DNA of 34,651 nucleotides. Source: Candidatus Woesearchaeota archaeon (GTDB taxonomy: Archaea; Nanobdellota; Nanobdellia; Woesearchaeales; JACJVW01). This document shows, piece by piece, positions 8,851 to 32,828 of this stretch. Both the position numbers and the translations under genes were made by a program. Under the pieces are notes generated by a model. The model made no database searches, was not told the DNA's origin, and saw only the letters and a list, made by a program, of their open reading frames with translations. Position 1 is the first letter of the stretch, and the number at the start of each line of letters is the position of its first letter. The stretch is taken from contig JAWOGQ010000032.1 in assembly GCA_046496745.1 (NCBI GenBank), forward strand, positions 1-34,651, given 5' to 3'.

Positions 8851-8851
8851 A

Positions 8852-9595: not shown

Positions 9596-9608
9596 AAAGA
9601 GGTAGAAC

Positions 9609-11273: not shown

Positions 11274-11275
11274 TA

Positions 11276-12959: not shown

Positions 12960-13048
12960 TGGGCCCGCGGAGATTTGAACTCCGGACCACTCGATCTCTG
13001 ATGAAAGCATTATCAGTCGAGCACTCCACCAGGCTAAGCTACGGGCCC
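12960..13048 (-). tRNA. tRNA-Ile(GAT) with a 15-nt intron at position 37/38 (12996-13010)
   Basis: Acceptor GGGCCCG/CGGGCCC-A; anticodon arm CTCGA-CTGATA^A-TCGAG; T-loop GTTCAAATC; intron ATGCTTTCATCAGAG forms a bulge-helix-bulge; upstream GAAAAC-TTTAAAAA. Confidence 0.95.
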
Positions 13049-16739: not shown

Positions 16740-16758
16740 TTATTTTGTTAGAAAAGAG

Positions 16759-16831
16759 CGCCTCTGGGCAGACTCGAACTGCCGACCTCGCGGTTAACAG
16801 CCGCGCGCTCCACCTACTAAGCTACAGAGGC
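16759..16831 (-). tRNA. tRNA-Asn(GTT)
   Basis: Acceptor GCCTCTG/CAGAGGC-G; anticodon arm CGCGG-CTGTTAA-CCGCG; GTTCGAGTC; CCA not encoded; upstream GAAAGCTTTATAAA. Confidence 0.96.
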
Positions 16832-16914: not shown

Positions 16915-17175
16915 TTAAAGGGGTGTGGGGTTATCTTTGTTGTTAGAATTTATTTTGTATACCAATGTGTTTGGTCTGACAGGGGCTTTCCTGAGTACAC
17001 CTATAGCATCGCCGGCGCTTGCTGATTCGACCTCTTGCCGATCTTTTTGCATGCTTTCCACAGGTTCTTCATTTTCCTCTATCCTAAGGATATCTCCTTT
17101 CTTGAGAGGTGCGATCAGTTCTATTATCGCTATCCTATCGTTCCTGGTGGTCTCGATTACGCGTCCGATCTCCAT
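16915..17175 (-). CDS. Small beta-barrel protein (U32 C-terminal / EF-Tu domain II-like)
   Basis: Pattern IGRV...A.IEL..PLKKGD.L.I...VESMQ.DR..VESA.AGD.IG...VR.N..VYK. Confidence 0.7.
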   Translation of the reverse strand: MEIGRVIETTRNDRIAIIELIAPLKKGDILRIEENEEPVESMQKDRQEVESASAGDAIGVLRKAPVRPNTLVYKINSNNKDNPTPL

Positions 17176-17216
17176 CTTCCAAAACCTTTATATTCAAGGG
17201 TGGTTTGTTTGTATTT

Positions 17217-18245: not shown

Positions 18246-18333
18246 GAATCATTAATGTGTTTTATTAGCAAATTTTGATTACGTTTTTATTTTTTTATCA
18301 GAGATTGCATGAAACAATTATGGAAAACGCAAG

Positions 18334-18382
18334 TTTTATAAAGTACTATATTCAAGTAGTTCTGTAGGGTATTGGGAGGTGA
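18334..18382 (+). promoter_or_regulatory. TATA box and strong Shine-Dalgarno of the archaellin gene
   Basis: TTTTATAAA at 18334-18342; GGAGGTGA at 18375-18382, 4 nt before ATG 18387. Confidence 0.7.
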
Positions 18383-18386
18383 CATT

Positions 18387-18983
18387 ATGTTTACTAATAA
18401 AGGTGAAATGGGTATAGGTACTCTGATAATATTTATAGCATTACTACTAGTTGCAGCAGTTGCAGCAGGCGTACTTATACAGACATCAGGTTCTCTTCAG
18501 GAGAAAGCATTGACAACGGGCGATCAGGCTAAAAGCCAGATTGCAACTAACGCGAAAGTTGTGGAAGTCTCTGCAACGGATGGCAGGCAAGGCGGACTGC
18601 GATATTTCACACAGATCGTGAAACTTGCTCCTGGTTCTGAATCAATCAAGCTTGATCAGACAATCATCACGTTCAACACATTTGATAAGACCGCAACACT
18701 GCAGTATGTGAACGGAACAGCTGAGAATAATTGTTCAACCGGGTATTGCACTGTGAATGGGACAGGAAATTATACTGTCGAATACTTGCAGACCGGGTCA
18801 AATCATGTGCCAGGAAATCTTCAAAGGGGAGATGTGATCAAGATCTATTACGAGGCACCAAAGAATGTCACTGAATCAGAAGAGGTCAGGATCAATTTGA
18901 TTCCTAAAATCGGGACTTCAACTCTGACCAAGTTCGTGACTCCAGAAGTGATCTCAACAGAAAGGGTATATCTGTACCCATAA
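18387..18983 (+). CDS. flaB: Archaellin (archaeal flagellin)
   Basis: Class III signal MFTNKG/EMGIGTLIIFIALLLVAAVAAGVLIQTSGSLQEKA; KLAPGS..IKL; GD motif; several N-x-S/T sequons. Confidence 0.95.
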   Translation: MFTNKGEMGIGTLIIFIALLLVAAVAAGVLIQTSGSLQEKALTTGDQAKSQIATNAKVVEVSATDGRQGGLRYFTQIVKLAPGSESIKLDQTIITFNTFDKTATLQYVNGTAENNCSTGYCTVNGTGNYTVEYLQTGSNHVPGNLQRGDVIKIYYEAPKNVTESEEVRINLIPKIGTSTLTKFVTPEVISTERVYLYP

Positions 18984-18996
18984 AAGAGGTGTAATA

Positions 18997-19203
18997 ATGA
19001 CGCGTGTTCATTCGCATGTACTGGAGAAAGTAATCAGTCTGGTAATGTTCCTGTTCGGGCTTGGCGCAGTCTGGATCTTTGCGACTGCCTGGACGAAGGG
19101 CATGGATCCAGGAGAGCTTGCAATCATTGAGATCCTTTTGATCATAGTGCTTGCGATCCTTGCACAGACTGTTATCCTTATCAGGATATACGACAAGAAA
19201 TAA
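18997..19203 (+). CDS. Small two-TM hypothetical protein, probably co-transcribed with flaB
   Basis: SD GAGGTG; two hydrophobic helices; followed by a T-run. Confidence 0.7.
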   Translation: MTRVHSHVLEKVISLVMFLFGLGAVWIFATAWTKGMDPGELAIIEILLIIVLAILAQTVILIRIYDKK

Positions 19204-19233
19204 TTTTTTTTTATAATTAATAAAGAAAAAAAA
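19204..19233. terminator. Bidirectional oligo-T terminator between convergent genes
   Basis: T9 at 19204-19212 on +; A8 at 19226-19233 (T8 on -). Confidence 0.55.
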
Positions 19234-19240
19234 TTCTGAT

Positions 19241-19933
19241 TTATATCTCTACAAACACATAGTAGTCTCTTGTTCCTGCATCGCTTGTTGGAACCATGAC
19301 CTGGTAGTTTGCAGCAGCTCCGTTGAATGCATCAGTTCCCTGGCCGATAATTCCTGCATAGATCTTGTTGTCGTTGTTATCCCACAAGAGCATTGAGTTC
19401 CATGCATCGGTTTCGTCTGACTGTTTTGTCACAGCGGTGAAGGTATTGTCTGCAGTTACGCTGAATACGTCAGAGTTTATTGCTGGGTGTGTTCCTGTTA
19501 CGAAAGTGGAGGTCACGTTGTCGCTTCCTGATAGGGAAAGTGCTGTGTCTTCTTGTTCTGTTCTTTCAGGCATTGATGTACCTCCTGAGACAGATGCCCA
19601 GTCAATGGTTGTTGCGTTTGCGAAGTATATGTTTCCGCTTGTTGCATTTTCAATTGTTGTCCAGTTGTAAGCGGTTGCTCCTGCACCATCCTGGAGGGTG
19701 AAGGATGCTTTTACAGTTCCGTAGTAGATCTGCCAGTTGTCTGTCTGACTGTCCTGGGTTGCGTTGAGTTCAGTGTAGTATCCGCCGTCTGCTGTTGTAC
19801 TTGTTGCTGCAACTGTGGGTTCGGAGTTGTCACCTGTCCCTTCGCTGATTGAAGCTCCGTTCGGGTCTGCGTAGATGCAGCTTGCAAAGAGCGTCAGTAC
19901 AACGCATGCGATTAGCAATGGTTTATATCTCAT
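19241..19933 (-). CDS. Secreted acidic beta-rich hypothetical protein (230 aa)
   Basis: Signal peptide; SD GAGGTGA; rich in T/D/A/G/S; no TM anchor; ends YYVFVEI. Confidence 0.85.
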   Translation of the reverse strand: MRYKPLLIACVVLTLFASCIYADPNGASISEGTGDNSEPTVAATSTTADGGYYTELNATQDSQTDNWQIYYGTVKASFTLQDGAGATAYNWTTIENATSGNIYFANATTIDWASVSGGTSMPERTEQEDTALSLSGSDNVTSTFVTGTHPAINSDVFSVTADNTFTAVTKQSDETDAWNSMLLWDNNDNKIYAGIIGQGTDAFNGAAANYQVMVPTSDAGTRDYYVFVEI

Positions 19934-19999
19934 TTTTTCACCTCTAGTTAGTATGCCTATAGCTCTTTTAAGCTTTTAATCTACCTTTATGTATACTAA

Positions 20000-20019
20000 T
20001 ATATAAATATTTTGGTTTT
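20000..20019 (-). promoter_or_regulatory. BRE/TATA for the 230-aa gene
   Basis: AAAACCAAAATATTTATATA on the - strand. Confidence 0.6.
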
Positions 20020-20293
20020 GGGTACTAGGATTGATAAATTATATAGCTCCTGAGTCTGGATTCTGAATTTGGTTGTTTTTCTTTCTTCGACGGGGTTTTA
20101 TTTTTTCTTATTCTGTATAATTTCAGGAAATCTATTATTTTTTTCTTTTTTTTATTTTTTCAGGAAATATTATTGTGTTTCTCCCCGGTAAAATTTTTTT
20201 ATAATTTTCACTTGTTTCTTATGGCTTTAAATATATTTTAGAAAGTTATATAAAGGTGTTTTCTCATTTTTAATAAAACAGGACGGGACCATC

Positions 20294-20860
20294 TTGGAAC
20301 AGCAAAAAGAGTTAACATATTTGAATCCTTCTGAGGTCAGCACTTTATTAGATGGCATCCCGCGTACTCGTGACAAGGTTCTTTTGTCTTTGCTCTATGA
20401 GCTTGGCTGCAGTTTAAGGGAGCTTGTTAATATCCGTGTCCGGGATGTTTCCTTTGAGGAGCATGGCATTGCAATCCCTGGTTCTCATACAAAAAGGTGC
20501 GAGCGGTTCTGCCTTGTCTCTTCAAGGACCCTTGATCTTTTGCGAAGCTATCTTGACGAGGAGAATCTTCTTAAAAAGAGGCTTTCCTATATATTCTCGT
20601 CAAGCCATGGCGGCCATATGACTGTAAGAAGGATAACCCAGCTTATCCATAATATCCTGAACGATGCTGGTTTCGAAGACAGGGCAAACCCGCAGGTACT
20701 CAAGTATTCACATATAATAAACGCTTACCAGGCAAATGTGCCTATTTCAGCAATCCAGAAGCAAGTTGGACTTACAAAGCACCGGCTCGTATCAATCCTT
20801 CTTGAGGTTGATACTGAAGCGGGTATCGAGCATTACGAGAAATTTCTGGCGCATGAGTAA
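20294..20860 (+). CDS. Tyrosine recombinase (Xer/integrase) catalytic-fold protein, apparently inactive
   Basis: YLNPSEV..LL, RDKVLLSLLYELGCSLRELVNIRVRDV, TKRCER, YIF, MTVRRITQLI, NPQVLKYSH, IQKQVG. TTG start is uncertain. Confidence 0.85.
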   Translation: MEQQKELTYLNPSEVSTLLDGIPRTRDKVLLSLLYELGCSLRELVNIRVRDVSFEEHGIAIPGSHTKRCERFCLVSSRTLDLLRSYLDEENLLKKRLSYIFSSSHGGHMTVRRITQLIHNILNDAGFEDRANPQVLKYSHIINAYQANVPISAIQKQVGLTKHRLVSILLEVDTEAGIEHYEKFLAHE

Positions 20861-23800
20861 CATAGTAAAAAGAGGGATGGTGTATATCTTGTTCTTGCTA
20901 GTTGTTGCTCTAGTGCATGGGCAGGAGGTCTCTGTTGATCTTGATACTGGCTCTGGCTATGCGAAAGGTGATAGCGGGGATATCCTTGCATCAACCTCTA
21001 TCAATGGAATAAAGGTCTTGTCAATCCCGATGGAGCTTGAGGTCACATCTCCTGATGGGTTTGTTGAAAGATTCAACTTCAGCAACAAGTTTGATGGCAA
21101 TCAAAAACTGACTTATGAGTTTGAGCACTCCGGAGAGTATGTGATGGAGGCCATCGCAGAGGTCAGTGGTGTTGAGTATTCTGAGAAGAAGACAGTAGAG
21201 GTTGCAAAGCCTGCAATCGATTTCAATCTTTCAGTCGATACAGTCCTTTCAGGTGTCAAGGGAAATATAACACTGAACGGAGGAAAGGTTGATATCCTGC
21301 TTTTTGATCCATCTTCAAAACAGGTGACCCCTCTTTGTAATTTTGAATGCACTAATTGTTCTTTCTCTTGTGATACTGATTTCTCCAAACAGGCTTATAC
21401 ACTTATCGCAAAGGCGACAGTCAATGGGATCCAGTATATGAGGACTCAGCCTTTATACCTTTCAGACAAGGAGTACATGGGGGAATGTGCAGATGATCTT
21501 TCTGGAAAGGTCGGTTCCCAGGTGAGGTTTCCTTTCTCAGGTGACTCTTTTGAGATAATAGGCCCTAATCAATTCTATGAGAGGAGCGGGATGCCTTTCT
21601 TTACCCCGCCTCACGAGGGGTTGTATGATATCTTTGCAATAGGTGATGATATATGTCTTGCAAGGGTTAATGTTTCAAGGCAGGATGATACGCTTTATGT
21701 TGATGAGTTCCCTTTTGACCTGGTCTACCATCCGGAATACGGGACAGCTTTCATCCGCGCAAAAATAAATCTGACCAACCATTCAAAGGTCCAGTTCAGC
21801 GGACTGGAAGATCATATAGTAAGCGTTTTCGATCTTGATGCTGGAAAAGAGCTCGATCCATCAGCTATCGAACCTGAAGGAGAAGAGCTTTTGCTTGGTG
21901 TAGATCTGAAGCGTTATGGCGGAAAGACCTTGCTTGCAGAACCTTTTGATTATGAAAGGGATGAGAGGGATCATGGCGCTTTGATCTCTATCGCTTCCAA
22001 ATATTCTGACTTTTATATCCCTCTGGATGATCATGTCTATGATGTTTACTCTGAGACGTATGAGGATCCTGTGTTGTATGATGATTTTTTCATCGGCAAA
22101 CCTGATGATTATGTTGTTTCGGTTCTTGAGCCTCTGGAAGAGACCATGTCTTTTGGCAATGAGACCTATAATGTGAGCCTGGACTGCGATTCTTTTGTTG
22201 TAGAGTCTTCTGATCCTGGTGAGTTCTATGTGAACGGGAAAGCTAAAGGAATAGTCAATGATACCCTTCAGGTTGAAGGGTGCGGTGACATGGTGCTTCG
22301 TTACGAGGGTGAGGCTTTTGATATTATGATTGATCGTAATATCACGGTTCAAGCTGACCTTCCTGATTACACGATAGTTGGAAACCAATCATTCTCATTT
22401 GAGGTTAGCCCTGAAGCTGACAGTTATAGTTATCGGATTCTAGATCTTTCAGGCAATGAGCATGATCTTGGAGAGAGCAATGTGTCAAGCAAGAATCTTG
22501 ACTTGCCTGCTGGAAGTTGGTATCTGCAGACAATGCTGCATTATGGTGAGAAGAACCGTTCATTTATCGAGAGCATCGATGTCTATGAAGGTGATAGTTT
22601 CTTCTTTGGCCCAGGGAAGAATGTCTCTATTACATCTGGAGAGACTGCTCTTCTGAAACACAGTCTTGTCAATGAGCTTTCTGCAGCAAGGAGTTTCAGG
22701 ATAAAGGTTCCTGAGGAGGTTACAGCTTTTATTGATGACGGGGATGACATGCGGGAACTTGAGTATGATGGAAGCTACCTGACCGGAGAGCTTGAGCCTT
22801 ATGAGAAACGCATAATCTTTTTTGAGATAACTCCTGTGAATGACACCTCTTTTAATATAGAAGTTTCATCGGAAGAACAGAGTGTGGAGAGGACCGACAG
22901 GGTTTTCATAGAATCATATCGTGATCTTTTTGCTGATCTTGATCTCTACCAACTCACCTTCGAGAACGGGACGATAGTAAGCAGGATAAGGAACAATAAT
23001 GACCGGGCAGAGAGTTTTGACCTGGAATTGAACATATTCGGTTCTTCTAATATAACACTAAAAGCGAATGCCACAGTACCTGCTGATTCAGAGATCACAA
23101 TCGAAAAGGATATCTTCATGAAACGTGGTCTTGTGAAGGCAGGGCTAATGGATGGAAAAGTGCCTTTCCATGACACTGACCTTTCAAATAATAATCGTTC
23201 ACTGGTATTTGGGAAGCCAGACATACCTTCAGCAGATTTTGTATACCGCATACCTGTATCTGAAAGGGAAGGGAGAGAACAGTATGATTACATGGTAAGG
23301 GTCAATCTTGATCCTTCAGGTATCGATCTTTCAAGCATAGGTTTTGTTTATCTTGACCATGAAGAGAGCTTCCTTTCAAAAAGCCCATCTTTTAGGGTTC
23401 TTGATACAAGGCCTTTCTCCCTGATATTCCCAATATCAAGGCTTCCTGCCAACAGGGAGAATACTGTATATCTTTACTACAATCACAGCGATACCCAGGA
23501 TACTGAATCTTTCATGAAGGAACATAACAGCAAGGTTGAATGGGATTCAGAATCATTCATCGACAATACTGATACCAATACGATCGGAAGGTGGGTCCCT
23601 GATTACGGTGTTTCAGGCTATCATGGGATGGATTACCTGCATGACCTTGACATGGGGAAGGGTGAGAAGTTTGTAGTCTATCCATTTGATTACAAGGAAG
23701 CAGGTTATGAGTTATATTATCATAGTCCTGTGGATTCGAGCTTTTCAAGGTCAACTAAATGCACTGTGAATCACAAGCATGGTACGGATACATTCAGTAT

Positions 23801-26800
23801 AGACCAGACAAGGGATGATGTGAGTTACCTCGGGATGTATGATCTTGATGAGGATAGCAGCCTTGTCATCCATAATACCCAGACAAAAGGGGTTGTTGTT
23901 GCTGATGCTTTCAGGCTGATAAGGATCGATCATCTTGCGCAGCCGGAACTTGAAACCTGGGATGGTCCCAGCAACATGACACTTTACAGGACACTTTCTA
24001 ACACTTCCTTTGCCAGGGTGAATGTAAGGGAATACATGGAAGGCAATCTTTCTTTTGAAGCAAAGGGGCTTTTGTATGAGTTTGATGATCCTTATCTTAA
24101 CCTGACGCTAGAGGACTATTTCGGGAAGATTATTGTTGAGGGGCATAATACTTCCCTTACAATCTATGTCAGCAAGAATCGTGAGACCAAAAGCAAGGTG
24201 GTCTCTGACATTGAGATCGGAAAGCCGGTCAAATGGCGTGTTCCTTTGGATGGTTCTGCTGCCATCCCAAATGATGTCGAAAACATTAGTTCTGATGATG
24301 TCGTAATCTCTGTTGATGGGAAAGATATCAGTGTTTCAGAGTTCAGGGACCTGAAGAAAGCAAAGCGACTGAAAGGTAAGCTTAAGGATATGAAAGGTCT
24401 TGGAAAATCCTTTGCAAGGTCAAAGGTTAAGTCAGAGATAGAGGAACTTGAGAGAAACTTGCCAAATGTCAACATCACCAAAAATCTGACTGTGAGATCT
24501 GACTCTCTTGAGTTTGTCGAGTATACAACCTCTGCTCCTAAGCTGAAGAAGCTTGAGGATAAAGAAGCATTGAGCAGGGTCAAAGTATATTCTAATGTTT
24601 CAATGCATTATCATAATATCACATCATATACAGACATTCCCGCCACTGCTGTGAAACCCAGGCTTTATCACGTGATAGAAGGTAAACGCCATGACATCAC
24701 CAATGATGACCGTTATAATGTGACCTTCTATGACACGGATGGCGATGATCTGTATGATCATGTGCGCTGGATCGTTCCCCAGCTTTCGGAACAATATTTC
24801 GAAGTAGGTGTCGCAACCATCAACACTAATAAATCATTATATCATCCAGGTGAGACTGCCAGGATAATGGCAGCGGTTCTTGACAATGAGGGTTATCTTG
24901 TCTCTGACGCAGATGTTCATATCAGGGTCACTGACCCGTATAATTCAACTGTCACCTTCTCAGATGTTACAGAGGTGTCTCAAGGAATATATGCAGTCAA
25001 TTATGATACCACGTATCCTGGTGACCATGAGATATCTGTCCATGCGAATGCTTCAGGTGTCAATAATTCCATGTATTCGATGTTCAAGGTAAAAGAAGAT
25101 TATGAGTTTGATATAATAAGGGATGTACCAATGGCAACAGACCCATGGAAAGGCTCATTCAGATCAGAGATAACAATCTATTCAACATCAAATGAAACAT
25201 TCAGCTTTATCGAGCGTTTGCCTGAAAACCTTTCACTGACTGAAGCTAAAGGGGCAGACATATCACAGAACGGAACATACCTTGAATGGTCAAATCTTAC
25301 AAATGGTTCAGTCGTAGAATATTATGCCCGGCCTCCGCTTGTTGCGCCTGATGTCTATGAGCTTGGTCCGGCACAGGTGAGATATGGGAATGTTACATTT
25401 GAAGAGGCACGTCCATGGTATCTTGCAATTGACCCGCTTGAACCTCAGGTCAAGTATTGCACCAGCATAACCACCACAGGTACAGCAACAAATGACAATA
25501 CAGGAACCTGTGCCCAGGTCAATGCAAGTGATGATGTCAACCCTGCAGGAGGGGATAACGCGCTTGAAGCAGACAGTGATGGGGGTAATGCAGTAGCTGT
25601 TGTCACTTTTGACAGCAATAGCAATCCTTACTATCCGGTTGTTGATGCTAAGCTTACCATGGAATGGGCTGTAGAAGATACAGGAGGTAATACCTGTGCT
25701 ATTGATATCAACAATGGTTCAGGATGGCATAACATACATAATGACTGTACTGGCCATGGTGGAACCGCGACATCTGACATTGTTGCAAGCTATGATGTAT
25801 CAGCCCACATTCCAAACGGGGAGGTTGCTAATGGGTTTCAGGTAAGGCTGACCTATGCTGCAAGTGCTGATGGCGCTGGATGGGATCCTGACACCACTGA
25901 TGAATTGTATTTTGATCATGTGATGCTTGACCTTAACCTGACCAGTCCTCCTGGATACAGTATCTGGGGCCTTAATGTCTCAAATGGTGATGATGTTGTC
26001 AGGGGAGAGAATATCCTTGCTTATGCTTACTGGAACTATACTGACGGTATCTCTGATGCATTGCTTGAGCATGACGGGTCGGGTTCATATACCAATTATA
26101 CCATACCTTCACCATATACCGCTGACTGGACTAATTATACGATGGATACTTCAAACACAACACGTTTTGCTGGTGTTGGCAGAGTAACCGTCAGTTCCAT
26201 ACATGCGCGTGATGTTGATGGATACAAGGCAACAAGCCCTTCAAAATATTTCTATCTCTATGGTTATTCAAATATCTCAGAATCAACCCTGAGCTCTGCG
26301 GTAGTCAATGAGAGTGAATCCGCAACCTTCTCATGCAGGGTCCTGGACAATGATCTTGGAACTCCTATCCTGGATTATACAGTATATTTCTATAAGGAAG
26401 GGGTGTACATGACAAGTGTGAAGACAGACTCAACAGGATGGGCTGATTATACTGATAGCTACGATACACCAGGAACATCTGGCCTTTCATGTTCTATCTC
26501 AGATTCGGGATATTACATCGCAAATGCCAATGAGTCAAGTACATCCATAACTGTGCATGATCATTCAGTGCCAAGCATAGACCTTCTAAGTCCGGATGAC
26601 AATGTACAGGATATTGATGGGAATATCACATTCGTATTCAATGTTAGCGATGAATGGTCAGGGATCGATAATTGTTCACTTGTGATAAATGGAAGCGTCA
26701 ATCATACCGGTCCAGCATCAGAGGTCGGCAATAATAGCATCGACACAATGCTTCCCTTTGGTGTATGGGAATGGAACATAAATTGTACAGACGATTCTGT

Positions 26801-29800
26801 CAATAATAATGAGGGCAGCTCGGAGAAACGTATAATCAACGTCGCACCTGATACAACCCCTCCTTCGATAGACCACCAGGAACCGCCTGATGGTGTTGAT
26901 ACCGGACGAAATGTTACCCTGATATTCAATGCAACAGATGAATTAAGCAATGTAAGTTCCTGTACCCTTATCTTTGATGGTATAGAAAACCAGACGGAAA
27001 GCTCCATTGTTGATGGTGAATGGATATCGATGAATCTTACAAACCTTGATTCAGGAATCCATACCTGGAGGGTAAACTGTTCAGATGATTCTCCTGCAGA
27101 GAACTGGGACAGGAGTTCCACCTGGACATTCAATGTTGGAGAGGACAAGAGCCCTCCTGATATAACCCTTTACTCCCCTGAGAATGATTCAATCGATACA
27201 GATGGGAATGTGTCTTTCATATACAATGCATCAGATTTCATGTCAGACGTTGCCAGTTGTTCCCTCTATATCAATGGAAGCCTTAACCAGACCAGTACAT
27301 CAATCAATGATTCGACACAGTCTTTCTTCATACCTGATATGGCTGAAGGGGACTGGTACTATTTCATCAATTGCACTGATAACTCTGCCAACAGCAACAC
27401 AGGAAAGAGTGAAGTCAGGTACTTTACAGTTGACTATGATTTCCTTGAACCTGATGTGACACTTATTGATCCTTTGAACTACTTCTCCACTGTAACAGGA
27501 GATATAACTTTCACATACAATGTCACTGATGAGAGCTCTATAGATAGTTGTTCACTCATAATAGATGGAATGATTAACAAGACTGATGATACTATCAGCA
27601 AGAATTCGGAGCAGACATTCTCGCTTACTGGTCTTTCTGATGGAAACTACACCTGGGCAGTCAACTGTACTGATGCAAGCGATGGAATGTATACAGGCGG
27701 GTCAGAAACAAGGAATTTCTCAGTGGGTCCTGATGAAGAAGGGCCGGTCATAACTCTTTTCGCCCCAATCAATGATTCGGTTGATACTGATGGATCTGTC
27801 TCTTTCACTTACAAGGTTGTTGATGCGACATCAGGAATAGACAGCTGTAAGCTTTATGTGGATGGGACAATTGAGGATACTGATACCTCTGTACTGGAGG
27901 ATGAGGAACAATCGCTGAGCGCAACACTTGGTGATGGGATGTATGACTGGAATATCAATTGCACTGATGATTCACCACAGAAGAATATGGGTAGTAGTGA
28001 AGTAAGGATTCTTAATGTCTCCATAACATATGAGACAGATTATTCTATCACCATGGATGACCATTATGTCTCGCAGGGTGAATACATGCAGGCGGATGTG
28101 TATCTTGAGGATGGCCTTGGTTCATCAATAACCGGAGCTGATGCGTATGGCTATATCATCCGTAATCCTGGTGTGGATAACCAGACTTTACCTTGGACAA
28201 ACAGTTCATTCCCATTAAGAAAAGAGATACCATTAACTAATACTGGGGGAGAAGGGATACAAAATGCTCCTGTTAGCCTTACTCTTGATACTGCATCAAT
28301 AATTGCGGCAGGTGACATGGATGCTGCCTGTAATGACCTGCGGTTTGGTGATCAGGGCAATTATGAACTTGATTATTATTTCTGGGATGCTGATACAGGT
28401 TGTGATGACCCGGCTTCACCTGTCCTTGTCAAGGTGAAAAGGGTCTGGCCTTCTGCAACAAACAGGATAGGTATGTATTATGGCAATGCAGCTGCAAGCA
28501 GCTCTGAAAACAGGGATGCATTTCCTGTGGTGGATAATTTCGATGATGGTGACACTTTTGCAAGCAATTACTGGGGAACAGTCTATTCCAATGCTGATGA
28601 TGAATGGGAAATATCTGGAGCCTCTGCATATGATGGTGGTAATGCTGCAAGATCACAGATATACGATGAAGCAGGTTCTTCTCGCGATTCATCCTTTGGA
28701 AAGGAGATCGAAGTCACAGCAAATTCAACCCTCCATTGGCACTGGCGTGTCAGCAGTGGTAACGCGCAATTGACATTCTATCTTGATGGTACTGCAGTTG
28801 ATACGACAACAAGCACCACTTATGTTGCGGGAAGCCAGGCAATAACTCCTGGAACCCATACTATAAGATGGGAATTCAACCATCCAGGTGATGGTGCTGG
28901 CTGGGCTCCTACAACTTACAGTGGTTTTGCTGACCAGATATACCTTGTATCAGACAATATAGTCCAGGGTACTACTACATCAGAATCAGAATTCGTGGAG
29001 ACCCTCGTAAAGCAAACTACTGATTCAAATGGCAGGGCAACTCTTGCATGGGATACAAGGGGTTTTGCTGCAGGAGATTATTCAATAACAGGCTATGGCT
29101 CAAAGGGTTCTTACTGGGAAGATAATGGATTTTTCAATTTCAGGCTCGGACCTGATATCGAAAGCCCATGGTATACAGAATGGGGGCTTAACATAAGTGA
29201 TGGGGACATTGTTGTCAGGAATGAGAAGGTGAAGGCTTATTCATACTGGCATGATCTTGTCAACCTGAGCTCTGGACTGATCCAGCATACTGGAGAGGGA
29301 ACTGAAAATAATTACAGCATTGCAATCGATAAGGACAGGTCAGCATGGGCCAATTATACTCTTGATACAGCAAGTCCGCAGTTCACCACATTAGGAAGAG
29401 TCAATGTGACAACAATACATGTGAATGATTCTTCTGATAACTGGAACAAGACCAGCCCTGTGAAATATTTCAGGCTTTTTTCGACGTCTGAGTTGAATGA
29501 TTCAGCACTTAATATGACTGCGGTCTCTGAAGGGAATTATTTTAATGCAAGCTGTCATGTACGTGATGAGTTTGACAATACATCAATACAAGGATATAAT
29601 GTTAGTTTCTATCTTGATGGGAACTACAAAGGAGAGGCAGTGACAGATGCAACAGGGTGGGCAGAACTATCAATCCAGGCTACCTCTGTAGGGGATAACA
29701 CACCTGTATTATGCAAGATCATCGACCAGCCTGGGATAAACTATTATAGCGGTGAACCTTATAATCTGACAACTTATATTGATGTGACGGATATGGTTCC

Positions 29801-32800
29801 ACCGAATGTCACAGCATATAACCCTGGGAATGATTCACTCAAGACTGTCCCTAATATTGCAATGGGCTTTCATGTCTATGATGCAGGTGAGCTTGATTCA
29901 TGTGAACTTTATGGTAACTGGAGCGGATGGCATCTGAACCAGACGATGAGCAACCCTGAAAACGGAGGTTTTCCTAACATAAATTATTTTTCAGCAATAA
30001 CACTTCTCTCCGGGAATTATTCCTGGTATGTAACATGTAATGACACTAATGGAAACAGGGGAACAAGCAAGAATTTCACTTTTGATGTTTATCTTGTTGC
30101 GCCAACCATAACATTATTGCATCCTCCGGCAGATCATATAGGAGAACCGGGAGATTATGATTTTAATTATACAGTGTCACAACCTGATGATGAGGTAGGG
30201 ATAGATAACTGTTCTCTTTATATCGATGGTGTACTTAACCAGACAGATTACATGATACCTAAAGATATAGAGCAGAGTTTTAGTGTAAATGATCTTGATT
30301 ATGGGGAATATGAATGGAGGGTAGAATGTTCTGCAAACAATACCCTTGATGGTGCGAAACAACGAAACCTTTACCTCTATGACCTTAATATCACAGGACC
30401 TCTGAATGATACCAAGGTTGACAGGGATAATATCTCTGGATATCCGGATTCAATAAAACTTGTTGCAGAAGAGCTTTCAGGTTCAAATGATACAGAAGTG
30501 ATATTCAAGGCAAACATGACAGACCCTGCACTGGGAGAGGTAGTGCTTGGTTCAAACTTCACAAGCAGTGGTGTTGCGGAGTTAAATCTCAACCCGAACA
30601 GTTCTATCCTTGCAGGGAATTATACCTGGTGGGCTGAATTCGCGGACGGAAAGAGAAGCCTGGACCAGCGAAGGTTCTCAGTATATGGTGGGGTCAATCT
30701 GAGATTTGAGAATCCTGTCCTTGATCCTGATCCAGTATATGAATATAATGATAATGTTACCATAAATGTCTCAGCTGATTCGATTGGAGACGAGACTGAA
30801 AACCAGCTTATCAACTCGTATGGCCTGGCGATAGATGCAAACCTATCCAATGATGAGAATCATTACTCTGCCCTGGGCTATGCAGGTTCAGTCTTTACAG
30901 GAAGTGTCAATACTACTATACTGAAAAAGCATGGAGAGTGGAATGTATCGATGTTGCCTTCCCTTCCAAGCAGGTATCTTGTTGTTAATTCAACCGAAAG
31001 CAGGACATTCTTCCTGAATGTTACTGGTTATGGTATTCCTGCCATATCCCTGAATTATCCCCCTGACAATACAAATGTCACTACAACCAGCATAGATTTC
31101 AACTGGACTGCAAATGATTCTGTTGAAGATATCGTATCTTGTAACCTGACAATAAACGGAACCGTGAATGCTTCTAATATAACATCGAACAGCAGCATAC
31201 CAAAGGTATACAAGGTTTCAGGGTTCTCACCCGGCACATATGACTGGAATGTTACCTGTTGGGATATTGCGGGCAATGTGAACACATCTGCGACATACAA
31301 TTTTACAGTCCCTGACTCTTCTTCAGACCTGGTTCTTACTCACCAGGATGTTGCAAGGGTATACAGGGTGATCAATTTTACTGCAAATTATACCAATGCA
31401 GATGCTGAAGGGATTGACGGGAACTGCTCAATCAATTTCTCTGATGGTATCACTGCAAATCTCACTTTCAACACTACAGGAAACGATGCTTACAGTTATT
31501 CCAGGATTTTTAATTCAACAGGAACATATATCTGGAATGTGGATTGCAATCATTCATTCTATGCTGCACAGTCAGAGACTGATTCCATATTTATCAATAG
31601 AAGCTTTAGCGATGTGGTTGCTCCTGTAAACGGTACCAAAGTGGATCGTGATGGAAGCCATGCGGATAGTGATACTATAACCATAATCTCACATATACCC
31701 GGAGATCCTCAAGGGGTGAACATGACATTCTTCCTGAAGCAGAATCAGCCCTTCTCAAAAGAGCCTGTCATGATAGGTCATAATGTAACTGATATGAACG
31801 GGAATGCCACCCTTACTTATGATCCGCCTAGCTCTTTGTATGCAGGTAATTATACGATATTCTCCAATTCAACATACACTGACAACAGGTCTGTAAGGGA
31901 CAGTTTTGTCATAGGGTCCCTTGACCTTGAGATCTTATCATATCCTGAGGCATCTTATGAGCATAACAGTACGGTGCCAATCCATGTCAATATCACCTCT
32001 GGACATGAGAACTATTCAGAGCTCTATTATAACTACTCGATGGATGAGGATCTTTTGGCTTTCATGGAGGCAACAACAATAAAGAATGATTCATTTGACA
32101 TATTTCTTATGAATGAATGGAATTCATCCATATTCATCAATGTCAGTGATGAGAAGGGAACATGGAACCTGACTGTTAACCATAGCTCCTCGTATTTCTA
32201 TCCGGTTTCAGACAGCAGGACAGTCAATATAACTGCATATCTTACCAATATCAGTATATGGGACCAGTATGATGCGAAGGGAGGCTTTGTCGATCCTTAT
32301 GTATATGAGAACCTTGCTTTTTATGCCAACTATACTGATTCAAGCGGAGTATTCCTGAGTTCTGCGAACTGCAATTTCTCTTTTGATGACGGGACTTCGT
32401 TTATGGGAAGCGAGGGAGCGGTCTATGAGTACCTTACAAAGCAGTTCACTGAACCGGGCAGCCATTCATGGAATGTCACCTGTAACCTTACAGAGTATGA
32501 AGCTGCAACAAGCTCTACAAGCATCAGGGTGTATCCTAAGACAAATGTATCGCTTGCTTATAATGTCACATCTGTGGCAGATAACAGGTATGATATATCG
32601 ATCCTTATAACTAACCAGGCATACCCTGAGACCATCAATGCATATGATTATGTTCCGCCTGGATTCGAGGATCATAGTTATAGTTATGGGCCTAATGAGA
32701 CGTATCCTGTCAATGGAGGGAATGCGACGAAGTTCAATATCTCGGTTGTTGCATCTGAACACATAGATTACAGTGTCAACGGGTCAGGAGATTACAGTCC

Positions 32801-32828
32801 ATCATGGCTTTACATGTTCGCTAGCTGA
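20853..32828 (+). CDS. Giant (~3,990 aa) secreted multi-domain surface protein/adhesin
   Basis: Uninterrupted ORF. ATG 20853 begins a signal peptide (MSNIVKRGMVYILFLLVVALVHG). Contains Ig-like repeats, DUF2341-like, golvesin/CBM-like and MG2-like segments and dense N-x-S/T sequons. Confidence 0.92.
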   Translation: MSNIVKRGMVYILFLLVVALVHGQEVSVDLDTGSGYAKGDSGDILASTSINGIKVLSIPMELEVTSPDGFVERFNFSNKFDGNQKLTYEFEHSGEYVMEAIAEVSGVEYSEKKTVEVAKPAIDFNLSVDTVLSGVKGNITLNGGKVDILLFDPSSKQVTPLCNFECTNCSFSCDTDFSKQAYTLIAKATVNGIQYMRTQPLYLSDKEYMGECADDLSGKVGSQVRFPFSGDSFEIIGPNQFYERSGMPFFTPPHEGLYDIFAIGDDICLARVNVSRQDDTLYVDEFPFDLVYHPEYGTAFIRAKINLTNHSKVQFSGLEDHIVSVFDLDAGKELDPSAIEPEGEELLLGVDLKRYGGKTLLAEPFDYERDERDHGALISIASKYSDFYIPLDDHVYDVYSETYEDPVLYDDFFIGKPDDYVVSVLEPLEETMSFGNETYNVSLDCDSFVVESSDPGEFYVNGKAKGIVNDTLQVEGCGDMVLRYEGEAFDIMIDRNITVQADLPDYTIVGNQSFSFEVSPEADSYSYRILDLSGNEHDLGESNVSSKNLDLPAGSWYLQTMLHYGEKNRSFIESIDVYEGDSFFFGPGKNVSITSGETALLKHSLVNELSAARSFRIKVPEEVTAFIDDGDDMRELEYDGSYLTGELEPYEKRIIFFEITPVNDTSFNIEVSSEEQSVERTDRVFIESYRDLFADLDLYQLTFENGTIVSRIRNNNDRAESFDLELNIFGSSNITLKANATVPADSEITIEKDIFMKRGLVKAGLMDGKVPFHDTDLSNNNRSLVFGKPDIPSADFVYRIPVSEREGREQYDYMVRVNLDPSGIDLSSIGFVYLDHEESFLSKSPSFRVLDTRPFSLIFPISRLPANRENTVYLYYNHSDTQDTESFMKEHNSKVEWDSESFIDNTDTNTIGRWVPDYGVSGYHGMDYLHDLDMGKGEKFVVYPFDYKEAGYELYYHSPVDSSFSRSTKCTVNHKHGTDTFSIDQTRDDVSYLGMYDLDEDSSLVIHNTQTKGVVVADAFRLIRIDHLAQPELETWDGPSNMTLYRTLSNTSFARVNVREYMEGNLSFEAKGLLYEFDDPYLNLTLEDYFGKIIVEGHNTSLTIYVSKNRETKSKVVSDIEIGKPVKWRVPLDGSAAIPNDVENISSDDVVISVDGKDISVSEFRDLKKAKRLKGKLKDMKGLGKSFARSKVKSEIEELERNLPNVNITKNLTVRSDSLEFVEYTTSAPKLKKLEDKEALSRVKVYSNVSMHYHNITSYTDIPATAVKPRLYHVIEGKRHDITNDDRYNVTFYDTDGDDLYDHVRWIVPQLSEQYFEVGVATINTNKSLYHPGETARIMAAVLDNEGYLVSDADVHIRVTDPYNSTVTFSDVTEVSQGIYAVNYDTTYPGDHEISVHANASGVNNSMYSMFKVKEDYEFDIIRDVPMATDPWKGSFRSEITIYSTSNETFSFIERLPENLSLTEAKGADISQNGTYLEWSNLTNGSVVEYYARPPLVAPDVYELGPAQVRYGNVTFEEARPWYLAIDPLEPQVKYCTSITTTGTATNDNTGTCAQVNASDDVNPAGGDNALEADSDGGNAVAVVTFDSNSNPYYPVVDAKLTMEWAVEDTGGNTCAIDINNGSGWHNIHNDCTGHGGTATSDIVASYDVSAHIPNGEVANGFQVRLTYAASADGAGWDPDTTDELYFDHVMLDLNLTSPPGYSIWGLNVSNGDDVVRGENILAYAYWNYTDGISDALLEHDGSGSYTNYTIPSPYTADWTNYTMDTSNTTRFAGVGRVTVSSIHARDVDGYKATSPSKYFYLYGYSNISESTLSSAVVNESESATFSCRVLDNDLGTPILDYTVYFYKEGVYMTSVKTDSTGWADYTDSYDTPGTSGLSCSISDSGYYIANANESSTSITVHDHSVPSIDLLSPDDNVQDIDGNITFVFNVSDEWSGIDNCSLVINGSVNHTGPASEVGNNSIDTMLPFGVWEWNINCTDDSVNNNEGSSEKRIINVAPDTTPPSIDHQEPPDGVDTGRNVTLIFNATDELSNVSSCTLIFDGIENQTESSIVDGEWISMNLTNLDSGIHTWRVNCSDDSPAENWDRSSTWTFNVGEDKSPPDITLYSPENDSIDTDGNVSFIYNASDFMSDVASCSLYINGSLNQTSTSINDSTQSFFIPDMAEGDWYYFINCTDNSANSNTGKSEVRYFTVDYDFLEPDVTLIDPLNYFSTVTGDITFTYNVTDESSIDSCSLIIDGMINKTDDTISKNSEQTFSLTGLSDGNYTWAVNCTDASDGMYTGGSETRNFSVGPDEEGPVITLFAPINDSVDTDGSVSFTYKVVDATSGIDSCKLYVDGTIEDTDTSVLEDEEQSLSATLGDGMYDWNINCTDDSPQKNMGSSEVRILNVSITYETDYSITMDDHYVSQGEYMQADVYLEDGLGSSITGADAYGYIIRNPGVDNQTLPWTNSSFPLRKEIPLTNTGGEGIQNAPVSLTLDTASIIAAGDMDAACNDLRFGDQGNYELDYYFWDADTGCDDPASPVLVKVKRVWPSATNRIGMYYGNAAASSSENRDAFPVVDNFDDGDTFASNYWGTVYSNADDEWEISGASAYDGGNAARSQIYDEAGSSRDSSFGKEIEVTANSTLHWHWRVSSGNAQLTFYLDGTAVDTTTSTTYVAGSQAITPGTHTIRWEFNHPGDGAGWAPTTYSGFADQIYLVSDNIVQGTTTSESEFVETLVKQTTDSNGRATLAWDTRGFAAGDYSITGYGSKGSYWEDNGFFNFRLGPDIESPWYTEWGLNISDGDIVVRNEKVKAYSYWHDLVNLSSGLIQHTGEGTENNYSIAIDKDRSAWANYTLDTASPQFTTLGRVNVTTIHVNDSSDNWNKTSPVKYFRLFSTSELNDSALNMTAVSEGNYFNASCHVRDEFDNTSIQGYNVSFYLDGNYKGEAVTDATGWAELSIQATSVGDNTPVLCKIIDQPGINYYSGEPYNLTTYIDVTDMVPPNVTAYNPGNDSLKTVPNIAMGFHVYDAGELDSCELYGNWSGWHLNQTMSNPENGGFPNINYFSAITLLSGNYSWYVTCNDTNGNRGTSKNFTFDVYLVAPTITLLHPPADHIGEPGDYDFNYTVSQPDDEVGIDNCSLYIDGVLNQTDYMIPKDIEQSFSVNDLDYGEYEWRVECSANNTLDGAKQRNLYLYDLNITGPLNDTKVDRDNISGYPDSIKLVAEELSGSNDTEVIFKANMTDPALGEVVLGSNFTSSGVAELNLNPNSSILAGNYTWWAEFADGKRSLDQRRFSVYGGVNLRFENPVLDPDPVYEYNDNVTINVSADSIGDETENQLINSYGLAIDANLSNDENHYSALGYAGSVFTGSVNTTILKKHGEWNVSMLPSLPSRYLVVNSTESRTFFLNVTGYGIPAISLNYPPDNTNVTTTSIDFNWTANDSVEDIVSCNLTINGTVNASNITSNSSIPKVYKVSGFSPGTYDWNVTCWDIAGNVNTSATYNFTVPDSSSDLVLTHQDVARVYRVINFTANYTNADAEGIDGNCSINFSDGITANLTFNTTGNDAYSYSRIFNSTGTYIWNVDCNHSFYAAQSETDSIFINRSFSDVVAPVNGTKVDRDGSHADSDTITIISHIPGDPQGVNMTFFLKQNQPFSKEPVMIGHNVTDMNGNATLTYDPPSSLYAGNYTIFSNSTYTDNRSVRDSFVIGSLDLEILSYPEASYEHNSTVPIHVNITSGHENYSELYYNYSMDEDLLAFMEATTIKNDSFDIFLMNEWNSSIFINVSDEKGTWNLTVNHSSSYFYPVSDSRTVNITAYLTNISIWDQYDAKGGFVDPYVYENLAFYANYTDSSGVFLSSANCNFSFDDGTSFMGSEGAVYEYLTKQFTEPGSHSWNVTCNLTEYEAATSSTSIRVYPKTNVSLAYNVTSVADNRYDISILITNQAYPETINAYDYVPPGFEDHSYSYGPNETYPVNGGNATKFNISVVASEHIDYSVNGSGDYSPSWLYMFAS
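26556..28020 (+). repeat. Five tandem ~98-aa Ig-like coding repeats, each with two Cys
   Basis: Recurring D..P.I.L..P....G.V.F.YN..D..S.I.SC.L.I.G...W.INCTD in the translation; diverged at DNA level. Confidence 0.85.

What the first reader, a model, noticed from the sequence alone, without database searches (positions are those of the whole stretch)
20294..20860. Catalytically dead Xer-like protein coupled to a giant surface-protein gene
Seen: the fold signature is intact but catalytic positions are replaced. GxRxxE reads GCSLRE, HxLRH reads QVLKY, LGH reads VGL, and no Tyr occupies the expected nucleophile position (RLVSILL). There is no N-terminal core-binding domain. The ORF is intact and overlaps the giant gene's ATG by 8 nt (ATGAGTAA). 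Established: tyrosine recombinases need R-K-H-R-H/W-Y. Inference: a pseudo-recombinase exapted as a DNA-binding regulator or partner of a costly 12-kb surface gene; a candidate undescribed module.
Basis: partly seen in the sequence, partly recalled or inferred. Interest (0 to 1): 0.78.

Follow-up and report, generated by a model that had tools for sequence, protein, structure and literature searches.

The report
Dead recombinase heading giant surface-protein gene
A small archaeal protein that keeps the fold of a DNA-cutting recombinase but has lost every cutting residue is conserved as the first gene of an operon with a giant secreted surface protein, and most likely acts as that operon's private DNA-binding regulator.

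Summary
ORF 20294-20860 (188 aa) is a catalytic-domain-only member of the tyrosine-recombinase family (PF00589, E 1e-14). All six active-site positions are replaced (S40, C69, Q134, K137, L160, L169), there is no core-binding domain, and its stop overlaps the ATG of a 3991-aa secreted-protein gene by 8 nt.

It is not decay. The same degenerate site is conserved in a clade found only in the window's own order (Woesearchaeales-like DPANN archaea) among about 800 genomes sampled. Non-synonymous change is far below saturated synonymous change.

The linkage is conserved. Of 29 single-domain members, 17 are directly followed by an ORF of 1000 aa or more, and 3 more are cut by contig ends. Of 8 tandem-domain members, 7 are followed this way. 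None of 24 canonical-site relatives is.

In 17 of 35 relatives' upstream regions a dyad with recombinase core-site geometry (AGTTTC-N17-20-GAAACT) lies at the promoter. The window's own lineage lacks it.

In this genome the other giant genes are headed by small AbrB-type or HTH genes in the same position.

Best reading: an exapted pseudo-recombinase acting as an operon-specific DNA-binding regulator (confidence 0.55). I found no description in the literature I searched. It is a new variant of a known kind; the known example is MrpR.

The parts
20294..20860 (+). Pseudo-recombinase gene: 188 aa, catalytic domain of the tyrosine-recombinase fold only, all six catalytic positions replaced (S40, C69, Q134, K137, L160, L169)
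20853..20860 (+). 8-nt overlap ATGAGTAA: start of the giant gene lies inside the last codons and stop of the pseudo-recombinase gene (translational coupling). Relatives mostly have a 4-nt ATGA-type overlap.
20853..32828 (+). Giant gene, 3991 aa. It has an N-terminal hydrophobic signal (MSNIVKRG|MVYILFLLVVALV), then a conserved Ig-like plus Cys-rich N-terminal module shared with 16 other module-linked giants, then Ig-like, Golvesin_C, DUF2341 and Filamin-type repeats.
20246..20254 (+). TATA-like box TATATAAAG about 40 nt before the TTG start, conserved in the two closest relatives. Probable promoter of the two-gene operon (inferred).
20280..20287 (+). AGGACGGG, a Shine-Dalgarno-like stretch 7 nt before the TTG, conserved as AGGTCGG in the closest relative
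20098..20168 (.). Two 37-nt direct-repeat units, each ending in the small palindrome TTTCAGGAAAT. Not conserved in the two closest relatives and unexplained. A candidate lineage-specific operator only.
20213..20246 (.). TGTTTC-N22-GAAAGT, a weak, wider-spaced likeness of the dyad found in other lineages. It abuts the TATA-like box and is not significant on its own.
   Evidence: 1 match; 20% of shuffles do as well

Best explanation
The 188-aa product is an exapted pseudo-recombinase. It derives from the archaeal Xer/integrase catalytic domain, has lost the core-binding domain and all catalytic residues, and can no longer cut DNA. It is kept under selection as the first, translationally coupled gene of an operon whose second gene encodes a giant secreted surface protein.

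Most likely it binds DNA as a dimer at or next to the operon's own promoter and sets the expression of the costly giant gene (autoregulation; the sign is unknown).

Shown: fold, dead site, conservation, conserved gene coupling, and the promoter-proximal dyad in relatives. Inferred: DNA binding, dimerisation and the regulatory role.
For: 1. Fold and dead site.

2. Selection. Degenerate-site residues are conserved over 8 and over 36 homologues. Against the closest relative pN is 0.25 and pS is 0.83, which is saturated.

3. One clade. 28 single-domain degenerate forms lie on one side of a branch (SH-aLRT 79, quick tree), and the subclades follow GTDB families.

4. Coupling, single-domain forms. 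There are 29 loci (the window plus 28; one of them, L086, is from the unpublished genome G184).
- In 17 the adjacent downstream ORF is 1000 aa or more, starting at -125 to +25 nt by the scripts' first-start rule and at -14 to +25 nt from the start codon nearest the stop.
- 3 more are cut by contig ends, at 430, 596 and 715 aa or more.
- In 1 the giant is the second gene.
- The other 8 have ORFs of 213-231 aa (5, secreted), 382 aa and 469 aa, or none.

5. Coupling, tandem forms. 7 of 8 are followed by 1049-2428 aa secreted proteins.

6. Controls. None of 7 short canonical-site forms and none of 17 full-length XerA-like genes has an adjacent large ORF. For the 17, the nearest same-strand ORF of 100 aa or more starts at least 186 nt away and is at most 468 aa.

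7. Dyad. AGTTTC-N17-20-GAAACT has 11-12-bp inverted arms and a 6-8-bp centre, which is recombinase core-site geometry.
- With at most 1 mismatch it lies within 200 nt upstream in 17 of 35 degenerate-form windows.
- It is in 0 of 23 canonical windows and 8 of 885 other ORF windows, and 6 of those 8 share the intergenic region with a module.
- Exact sites in five whole genomes number 4, and 3 of them are at module promoters.

8. Same slot, other folds. In this genome the other two frames over 4000 aa and a 1158-aa surface ORF in the window are each headed by an overlapping small gene for a DNA-binding fold: MazE/AbrB, tandem sigma70-r4 HTH and wHTH. In relatives, 7 of 7 full-length AbrB-type hits and most of 13 HTH-type hits are likewise followed by ORFs of 771 to 5408 aa.

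9. Charge. The family is basic, with median pI 9.5 and net charge +9 over 36 members.

10. Precedent. MrpR is a recombinase-fold protein without recombinase activity that acts as a DNA-binding repressor (PMC10516654; abstract and section 27 read).
Against: - No DNA binding was tested.
- The window's own lineage (window, G002, G003) has no copy of the dyad, and the whole G000 assembly has no exact site.
- The dyad was found in the same windows in which its enrichment was then counted (post hoc). Exact sites are no more frequent genome-wide than a reversed-pattern control, 4 against 3. Only their location is special.
- Related loci are kin, not independent samples.
- The window's copy is not basic: pI 6.8, net charge -1.
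- A catalytic domain without the core-binding clamp would be expected to bind DNA more weakly than a full recombinase (general knowledge).
- 8 of 29 single-domain members are not next to a giant gene. 7 of those 8 are in one GTDB family, f67. There, 5 are coupled to a small secreted protein of 213-231 aa, so the partner is a secreted protein and not strictly a giant one.
- The gene pair diverges much faster than its flank: 63-66% against 96% identity with the closest relative. That would also fit a protein-protein partnership.
Confidence: 0.55

Rival explanations
1. Protein partner rather than DNA binder. The small protein binds the nascent or pre-secretory giant protein, or its secretion or assembly machinery, as a chaperone, pilot or assembly factor. 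The recombinase fold would be only a scaffold.
For: - Tight translational coupling.
- The pair evolves together and much faster than the flanking flagellin-like gene, 63-66% against 96% identity.
- The window's copy is near-neutral in charge.
- In family f67 the partner changes to a small secreted protein while the coupling stays.
Against: - The partner carries an N-terminal signal and acts outside the cell, while the small protein has no signal.
- The family is basic overall.
- A dyad sits at the promoters of many relatives.
- Unrelated leader genes in the same slot all have DNA-binding folds.
Confidence: 0.15
2. DNA binder with an architectural rather than a classical regulatory role. It would mark or hold the 5' end of a 12-19-kb gene, for example to keep transcription processive, to shield it from silencing, or to manage supercoiling where transcription, translation and secretion are coupled. 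It would do this without cutting DNA.
For: - The fold is shared with type IB topoisomerases (general knowledge).
- The association is with very long, co-translationally secreted genes.
- Arg II and the hairpin Arg are retained in most members (R137 in most, R71 nearly invariant).
Against: - No evidence for any site inside the genes.
- The dyad is at the promoter.
- f67 members are coupled to genes of only 213-231 aa.
Confidence: 0.15
3. Accessory, non-catalytic subunit of a real recombination reaction. It would pair with an active XerA or integrase to invert or excise DNA and so phase-vary the surface gene.
For: - The dyad has core-site geometry, and some loci carry 2-3 copies (L060, L086, L088, L114).
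- Inactive Int(C) fragments can assist an exogenous integrase (PMC8371274, passages read).
Against: - No long inverted or direct repeats flank the promoter or gene in the window.
- No dyad in the window's lineage.
- No canonical PF00589 or XerA gene was found in this 96%-complete assembly.
- RNA-library contigs showed no joints (weak).
Confidence: 0.07
4. Relic: a decaying integrase fragment, for example the int(C) half of a 'suicidal' SSV-type integrase or the integrase of an island at tRNA-Asn, with no function of its own.
For: - Catalytic-domain-only size.
- tRNA-Asn lies 3.4 kb upstream at 16758-16831.
- Int(C) fragments are known in archaea (PMC8371274).
Against: - The frame is intact and the length conserved across more than 10 GTDB families.
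- The substituted residues are conserved, and pN is far below pS.
- No att-like repeat.
- G+C is flat at 0.39-0.50.
- Int(C) halves keep the catalytic residues, and this protein has none.
Confidence: 0.03

Closest known systems
Archaeal XerA (solved: T. acidophilum 5hxy, P. abyssi 4a8e)
   Same: Closest sequence and fold. NCBIfam XerA E 1e-26, phmmer E 5e-9 to 4a8e, Foldseek E 3e-9 and TM 0.76-0.79 to 5hxy. The dyad upstream of relatives has the 11-6/8-11 layout of Xer-type core sites (the layout of dif and lox sites is general knowledge).
   Different: No core-binding domain and none of R-K-H-R-H-Y. The score is far below the family cut-off (94 against 220 bits). It sits in an operon with a surface-protein gene, which 17 of 17 canonical XerA-like genes do not.
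MrpR (YopR), master repressor of B. subtilis prophage SPbeta (PDB 8A0A; PMC10516654); related SroF of phage phi3T (PDB 9rgl)
   Same: A tyrosine-recombinase fold that has lost recombinase activity and serves as a sequence-specific DNA-binding repressor (abstract and section 27). 9rgl is among the Foldseek hits at rank 31. The collection's precomputed Pfam list gives MrpR_C_cat (PF22823) for the window protein and two relatives.
   Different: MrpR has both CB and CAT domains (320 aa), keeps Lys and Tyr (Table 3), is a monomer in solution, and is phage-borne and bacterial. This protein is CAT-only at 188 aa, has lost all six residues, and is archaeal, chromosomal and coupled to a giant surface gene. 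My own scans did not find PF22823 (at E<=1; at E<=10).
Int(C) fragments of 'suicidal' SSV-type archaeal integrases (review PMC8371274)
   Same: Archaeal, catalytic-domain-only products of the integrase family (passages read).
   Different: Int(C) fragments arise by integration, keep the catalytic residues, and pair with an int(N) half and att sites. None of that is seen here. The review has no occurrence of DPANN or Woesearchae.
Crypton-derived domesticated genes of eukaryotes (PMC3212892) and streptococcal 'XerD-like' proteins
   Same: Further cases in which a tyrosine-recombinase domain is kept after domestication. For Crypton I saw only the search listing and the start of the abstract. The streptococcal case is recalled and comes from no call.
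   Different: Different domains of life, different architectures and different gene contexts. Neither is linked to surface-protein operons, as far as I recall.
Giant surface proteins of DPANN archaea (SPEARE-type proteins of Nanohaloarchaeota; PMC10266531, PMC11001535)
   Same: Very large, membrane-anchored or secreted, Ig-domain-rich proteins in small-genome archaea, thought to mediate host contact (passages read).
   Different: Those papers describe a VirB4-like ATPase domain and a downstream AAA+ ATPase. 'integrase' and 'recombinase' do not occur in PMC10266531, and in PMC11001535 each occurs once, in an unrelated context. The giant here shows no such ATPase domain in Pfam.

Membership tests
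Tyrosine recombinase / Phage_integrase superfamily (PF00589) | Homology to, and the fold of, the catalytic domain | tested here: met
   PF00589 E 1.1e-14, 55 bits against a cut-off of 27.1. Foldseek to XerA E 3e-9, TM 0.76-0.79.
Tyrosine recombinase / Phage_integrase superfamily (PF00589) | Catalytic residues Arg I, Lys, His II, Arg II, His/Trp III and the Tyr nucleophile | tested here: not met
   The six positions read S40, C69, Q134, K137, L160 and L169. Y181 is also Tyr in canonical rows, so it is not the nucleophile.
Tyrosine recombinase / Phage_integrase superfamily (PF00589) | N-terminal core-binding (SAM-like) domain that clamps DNA | tested here: not met
   The protein starts at XerA model position 91 of 263. 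Upstream is AT-rich intergenic DNA with no ORF. No longer or fused relatives were found.
Archaeal XerA (NF040815, equivalog) | Score at or above the curated cut-off | tested here: not met
   94 bits against a cut-off of 220.
MrpR-like pseudo-recombinase repressors (PF22823 MrpR_C_cat) | Match to the MrpR catalytic-like domain model | tested here: inconclusive
   PF22823 is listed among the precomputed Pfam hits for the window protein. It was not found by hmmscan at E<=1 or by the genome search at E<=10.
MrpR-like pseudo-recombinase repressors (PF22823 MrpR_C_cat) | Recombinase fold with lost activity, and specific DNA binding to a repeated operator | not testable with these tools
   Loss of the catalytic residues is shown. 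A candidate operator dyad is present in 17 of 35 relatives' upstream windows but not in the window's own. Binding needs a bench test.
Int(C) half of a suicidal SSV-type integrase | Retained catalytic residues, a matching int(N) half, att repeats at element borders | tested here: not met
   Catalytic residues are absent. There is no att-like repeat, no other PF00589 match in the genome, and G+C is flat.

The most novel reading that the evidence does not exclude
Woesearchaeales-type DPANN archaea follow an undescribed operon rule. Nearly every giant secreted surface-protein gene is headed by its own small, translationally coupled DNA-binding protein, and at least four unrelated folds have been recruited to that slot: AbrB/MazE, tandem sigma70-r4 HTH, winged HTH, and a pseudo-recombinase clade that arose once from Xer/integrase.

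The pseudo-recombinase still recognises a recombinase-type core site (11-12-bp inverted arms around 6-8 bp). That site now serves as a promoter operator, which would make this a recombination site and its enzyme converted together into a transcription switch for host-contact proteins.
Probability: 0.45. Interest if true: 0.8.

Novelty: new variant of a known kind. Interest (0 to 1): 0.68.

Why it matters
DPANN archaea have tiny genomes, yet they spend about 1% of their DNA on single surface-protein genes thought to mediate attachment to hosts. How these genes are controlled is unknown.

A conserved private DNA-binding partner gives a concrete handle:
- a defined protein;
- in many lineages, a defined 29-31-bp site;
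- a simple prediction that can be tested by EMSA or reporter assay.

It is also a clean natural case of an enzyme becoming a regulator. The recombinase catalytic domain loses its clamp domain and all chemistry, while apparently keeping the dimer-on-dyad way of reading DNA.

For annotation, these genes are currently named 'tyrosine-type recombinase/integrase' or 'XerD' (source names; automatic cluster names). That wrongly suggests mobile DNA next to giant genes.

Tried and rejected
Complex and structure predictions that did not run
- Complex prediction (homodimer, alignment A3) never ran. Dimerisation is therefore inferred only from the tandem-domain relatives and the dyad.
- A second structure prediction, of the tandem form (alignment A5), was not accepted.

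Searches that found nothing
- The metagenome-contig scan found no relatives. Genome contigs returned only two named MAG records, a Nanobdellota and a Ca. Woesearchaeota archaeon, both with the gene.
- A 'longer' search for fused forms found none. The tool itself calls this weak evidence.

Upstream comparison
- The alignment of the window with its two closest relatives shows a conserved TATA-like box and an SD-like stretch. It shows no shared operator.
- The 37-nt direct repeats of the window are not conserved there.
- A relaxed dyad search in the window's lineage gave one insignificant match.

RNA
- Contigs of four metatranscriptome libraries from one study were laid on 17000-33500.
- They cover the flagellin-like gene and the divergent 230-aa gene, with depth up to about 28.
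- Over the giant gene there are only scattered low-depth pieces.
- The bin holding the pseudo-recombinase gene has depth 1.1 in one library.
- No listed contig bridges the junction.
- DNA carry-over cannot be excluded, so this shows neither expression nor silence of the operon.

Other checks
- Rfam found only two tRNAs in the window.
- Small secreted partners of 213-231 aa show no similarity to the giants.
- C39 and H140 are invariant, and I considered a new Cys-His site. H at that column also occurs in canonical-site rows, and C39 replaces a core Leu of XerA. I could not measure distances in the model, so this was dropped.

Full report
WHAT IS THERE

The window comes from a 1.33-Mb, 107-contig assembly that is 96% complete. 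Its nearest named relatives are MAGs labelled Nanobdellota and Candidatus Woesearchaeota.

ORF 20294-20860 (+) is intact, starts with TTG and encodes 188 aa. Its TAA stop overlaps by 8 nt (ATGAGTAA) the ATG at 20853 of an ORF that runs to 32828 (3991 aa).

The giant product starts with a hydrophobic signal. It carries Ig-like, Golvesin_C, DUF2341, Filamin and MG2-type domains. About 40 nt upstream of the TTG lies TATATAAAG, followed by AGGACGGG. Both are conserved in the two closest relatives.

The protein belongs to PF00589 (E 1.1e-14, above the cut-off). It aligns only to the catalytic half of XerA, at model positions 91-257 of 263, and scores 94 bits against a 220-bit cut-off.

The alignment to solved XerA and a profile alignment with 150 other family members place these residues at the six catalytic positions:
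- Arg I: S40
- Lys: C69
- His II: Q134
- Arg II: K137
- His III: L160
- Tyr nucleophile: L169

It is therefore a structural residue of the C-terminal helix.

An AlphaFold model built on 8 sequences is confident (pLDDT 85.8, pTM 0.82). It matches XerA, XerH, Cre and other recombinases, and also the phage phi3T repressor SroF.

IT IS A CONSERVED FAMILY, NOT DECAY

- Seven close homologues of 181-222 aa keep the same substitutions. PQVLKYSH, L169 and Y181 are invariant.
- The exhaustive search found 443 proteins at E<=1e-10. Many are short single-domain forms and many are forms of about 300-370 aa with two tandem degenerate domains.
- Over 36 short degenerate forms, C39, R113, Q116, H140, G159 and Y181 are invariant. 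R26, R71, Y138 and R164 are nearly so.
- More distant members keep Arg II (Q-x-x-R-Y), while the window's lineage has Lys there.
- Against the closest relative the gene shows pN 0.25 with pS 0.83, which is saturated.
- In 401 genomes of the same GTDB order, 44 had a match at E<=1e-18.
- In 401 genomes sampled across the phylum, every short degenerate form lay in the same order. All 'same class' hits were canonical-size frames of 269-328 aa.
- A quick ML tree puts the 28 single-domain degenerate forms on one side of a branch (SH-aLRT 79, weak). Subclades largely follow GTDB families.
- In this assembly the gene is the only PF00589 or XerA-like match. The assembly is fragmented, so this does not show that a real XerA is absent.

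THE LINKAGE IS CONSERVED AND SPECIFIC

I fetched up to 20 kb around every short or tandem hit. I scored the ORF directly downstream on the same strand.

Single-domain degenerate forms: 29 loci, the window included. One locus, L086, is from the unpublished genome G184.
- 17 are followed by an ORF of 1000 aa or more. Sizes run from 1493 to at least 6278 aa, and nine run off the fetched stretch or contig. By the scripts' first-start rule the start offsets are -125 to +25 nt; taking the start codon nearest the stop, they are -14 to +25 nt.
- 3 more have open frames of at least 430, 596 and 715 aa, cut by the contig end.
- 1 has a 326-aa gene and then an ORF of at least 1572 aa.
- The remaining 8 are followed by a secreted protein of 213-231 aa (5 loci), by 382 aa, by 469 aa, or by nothing.
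- Seven of those 8 belong to one GTDB family, f67.
- Without L086 the count is 16 of 28.

Tandem forms: 7 of 8 are followed by 1049-2428 aa.

Of the 33 adjacent downstream ORFs of 200 aa or more whose N-termini I printed (26, 7), all but two (L066, L114) show a hydrophobic stretch near the N-terminus (read by eye; no predictor was run). Seventeen giants share a homologous N-terminal module, Ig-like followed by a Cys-rich motif.

Controls from the same searches:
- 0 of 7 short forms with an intact R..H-R-H-H-Y site has an adjacent ORF.
- 0 of 17 full-length XerA-like genes has one. The nearest same-strand ORF of 100 aa or more starts at least 186 nt away and is at most 468 aa.

For scale, G000 has 22 stop-to-stop frames of 900 aa or more among 2643 frames of 100 aa or more. 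One member, L070, has lost only Arg I and is already coupled to a 1540-aa secreted protein. It branches at the base of the clade.

EVIDENCE ON MECHANISM

(a) A dyad at the promoter. An inverted-repeat scan of the upstream regions surfaced a recurring dyad, AGTTTC-N17-20-GAAACT. In full it has 11-12-bp arms around a 6-8-bp AT-rich centre, for 29-31 bp in total. One example is AGTTTCGTAAT-AATAATT-ATTGCGAAACT. This is the layout of Xer and Cre-type core sites (general knowledge).
- With at most 1 mismatch it occurs within 200 nt upstream of 17 of 35 degenerate-form genes, in 10 GTDB families (16 of 34 without L086).
- It occurs upstream of 0 of 23 canonical-site genes.
- It occurs upstream of 8 of 885 other ORFs of 150 aa or more, and 6 of those 8 share the intergenic region with a module (a narrower setting gave 14/35, 0/23 and 5/886).
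- It usually lies 34-116 nt before the start codon and abuts TATA-like sequence.
- Exact sites in five whole genomes number four, and three of them are at module promoters. The reversed-pattern control gave three sites.

Caveats: the motif was derived from the same windows, the loci are kin, and the window's own lineage has no such dyad.

(b) The same slot holds other DNA-binding folds.
- The other two frames over 4000 aa in G000 are each preceded, with a 4-nt overlap, by a small gene. One is a 96-aa MazE/AbrB-type protein. The other is a 163-aa protein with two sigma70-region-4 HTH units.
- In the window itself, a 187-aa winged-HTH gene (6798-7361, minus strand) overlaps a 1158-aa Ig/cadherin-domain ORF.
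- In relatives, 7 of 7 full-length AbrB-type hits are followed by ORFs of 3636-5408 aa, one of them open-ended at 3874 aa or more.
- 11 of 13 fetched HTH-type hits are directly followed by ORFs of 771-4413 aa; one more has a 1134-aa ORF after a 263-aa one, and one contig was too short.

(c) The family is basic, with median pI 9.5. The window's copy is not, at pI 6.8.

(d) Tandem-domain relatives imply that two domains act together. This fits a dimer on a dyad, but it is an inference. The complex prediction could not be run.

COMPARISON WITH WHAT IS KNOWN

The fold and its nearest sequences are archaeal XerA, but three defining features fail: the catalytic residues, the core-binding domain and the family score.

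The closest functional precedent is MrpR of prophage SPbeta. It has a recombinase fold without activity and acts as a repressor on a repeated element (PMC10516654; abstract and section 27 read). MrpR keeps both domains, Lys and Tyr, and is phage-borne.

Int(C) halves of suicidal archaeal integrases are catalytic-domain-only, but they are products of integration with intact residues (PMC8371274, passages).

Catalytic-domain-only PF00589 proteins of about 176-197 aa are common in viruses and bacteria, so the size alone is not unusual. One Atlas cluster of 103 members is mostly Nanobdellota and is automatically named a recombinase.

NOVELTY

Nine literature searches (and the listing they returned) found no paper that links an integrase-like gene, or any leader DNA-binding gene, to giant genes in DPANN archaea.
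- The giant-gene preprint 10.1101/2023.11.21.568195 has no occurrence of integrase, recombinase or DPANN.
- The two nanohaloarchaeal papers draw no link between an integrase or recombinase gene and the giant genes in the passages shown.
- The archaeal tyrosine-recombinase review has no occurrence of DPANN or Woesearchae.

The library holds open-access papers and preprints only, and I read no supplements, so a prior mention elsewhere cannot be excluded.

I rate the finding a new variant of a known kind: a pseudo-recombinase used as a DNA binder, in a new architecture, a new domain of life and a new, conserved gene partnership.

VERDICT

Confidence is 0.55 for an operon-specific DNA-binding regulator. 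Interest is 0.68.

Noticed in passing
window 3340-7361 (- strand): A 187-aa winged-HTH (HTH_24/MarR/TrmB-like) gene at 6798-7361 overlaps by 19 nt a 1158-aa ORF at 3340-6816. That ORF has a signal peptide and Big_9/Cadherin-like domains. It is a second 'small DNA-binding gene plus large surface gene' pair in the same window.
   Followed up: partly
G000 contigs C45 and C78 (loci L092, L093) and loci L120-L139 of relatives: The other two frames over 4000 aa in this genome are each headed, with a 4-nt overlap, by a small DNA-binding gene: MazE/AbrB type (96 aa) and tandem sigma70-r4 HTH (163 aa).

In relatives, 7 of 7 full-length AbrB-type hits precede ORFs of 3636-5408 aa. 11 of 13 HTH-type hits directly precede ORFs of 771-4413 aa. 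The HTH family reaches 8 copies per genome.
   Followed up: partly
window 17109-19933 and 20853-20925: Directly upstream lie a prepilin-type peptidase (A24; 17109-18245), an Arch_flagellin-family gene (18372-18983) and a divergent 230-aa secreted protein (19241-19933). ORFs of matching size and order lie upstream in the two closest relatives (not checked for homology). The giant's N-terminus (..KRG then a hydrophobic stretch) resembles a class III (pilin-type) signal in the window and in its closest relative (G002), but not in other lineages. The giant may therefore be processed like a pilin. This is an untested idea.
   Followed up: no
window 8389-12946: An archaellum or type-IV-pilus-like cluster: flagellin-family gene, KaiC/FlaH-like ATPase, FlaI-type T2SSE ATPase and FlaJ-type T2SSF membrane protein.
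   Followed up: no
window 12960-13048 (- strand): Rfam finds a second tRNA here (54 bits, 89 nt) that ARAGORN did not report. It may carry an intron.
   Followed up: no
whole assembly G000: No canonical XerA or other PF00589 gene was found in this 96%-complete but fragmented assembly. The dead copy is the only family member seen. The congeneric G001 and G002 do have canonical-size copies.
   Followed up: partly
window 18372-32828 compared with locus L022: Against the closest relative, the pseudo-recombinase (63% identity) and the giant's first 1200 codons (66%) are far more diverged than the neighbouring flagellin-like gene (96%). The two-gene module evolves fast or has been exchanged as a unit.
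   Followed up: no
loci L067 (686-1730), L113-L119: Relatives of about 300-370 aa carry two tandem degenerate catalytic-like domains. 7 of 8 are directly followed by secreted proteins of 1049-2428 aa. One contig (L067) carries a tandem module and a single-domain module 3 kb apart.
   Followed up: partly
loci L063, L064, L073, L074, L095 (GTDB family f67): In one family the pseudo-recombinase gene is coupled, by a 4-nt overlap or a 1-nt gap, to a conserved secreted protein of 213-231 aa of unknown family (53-60% identity among four of them) instead of a giant. It shows no similarity to the giants.
   Followed up: partly
window 18400-19970: Contigs from four RNA libraries of one study cover the flagellin-like gene and the divergent 230-aa gene at the highest depth in the region. 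They give nothing over 17000-18100 and only scattered low-depth pieces over the giant gene.
   Followed up: no
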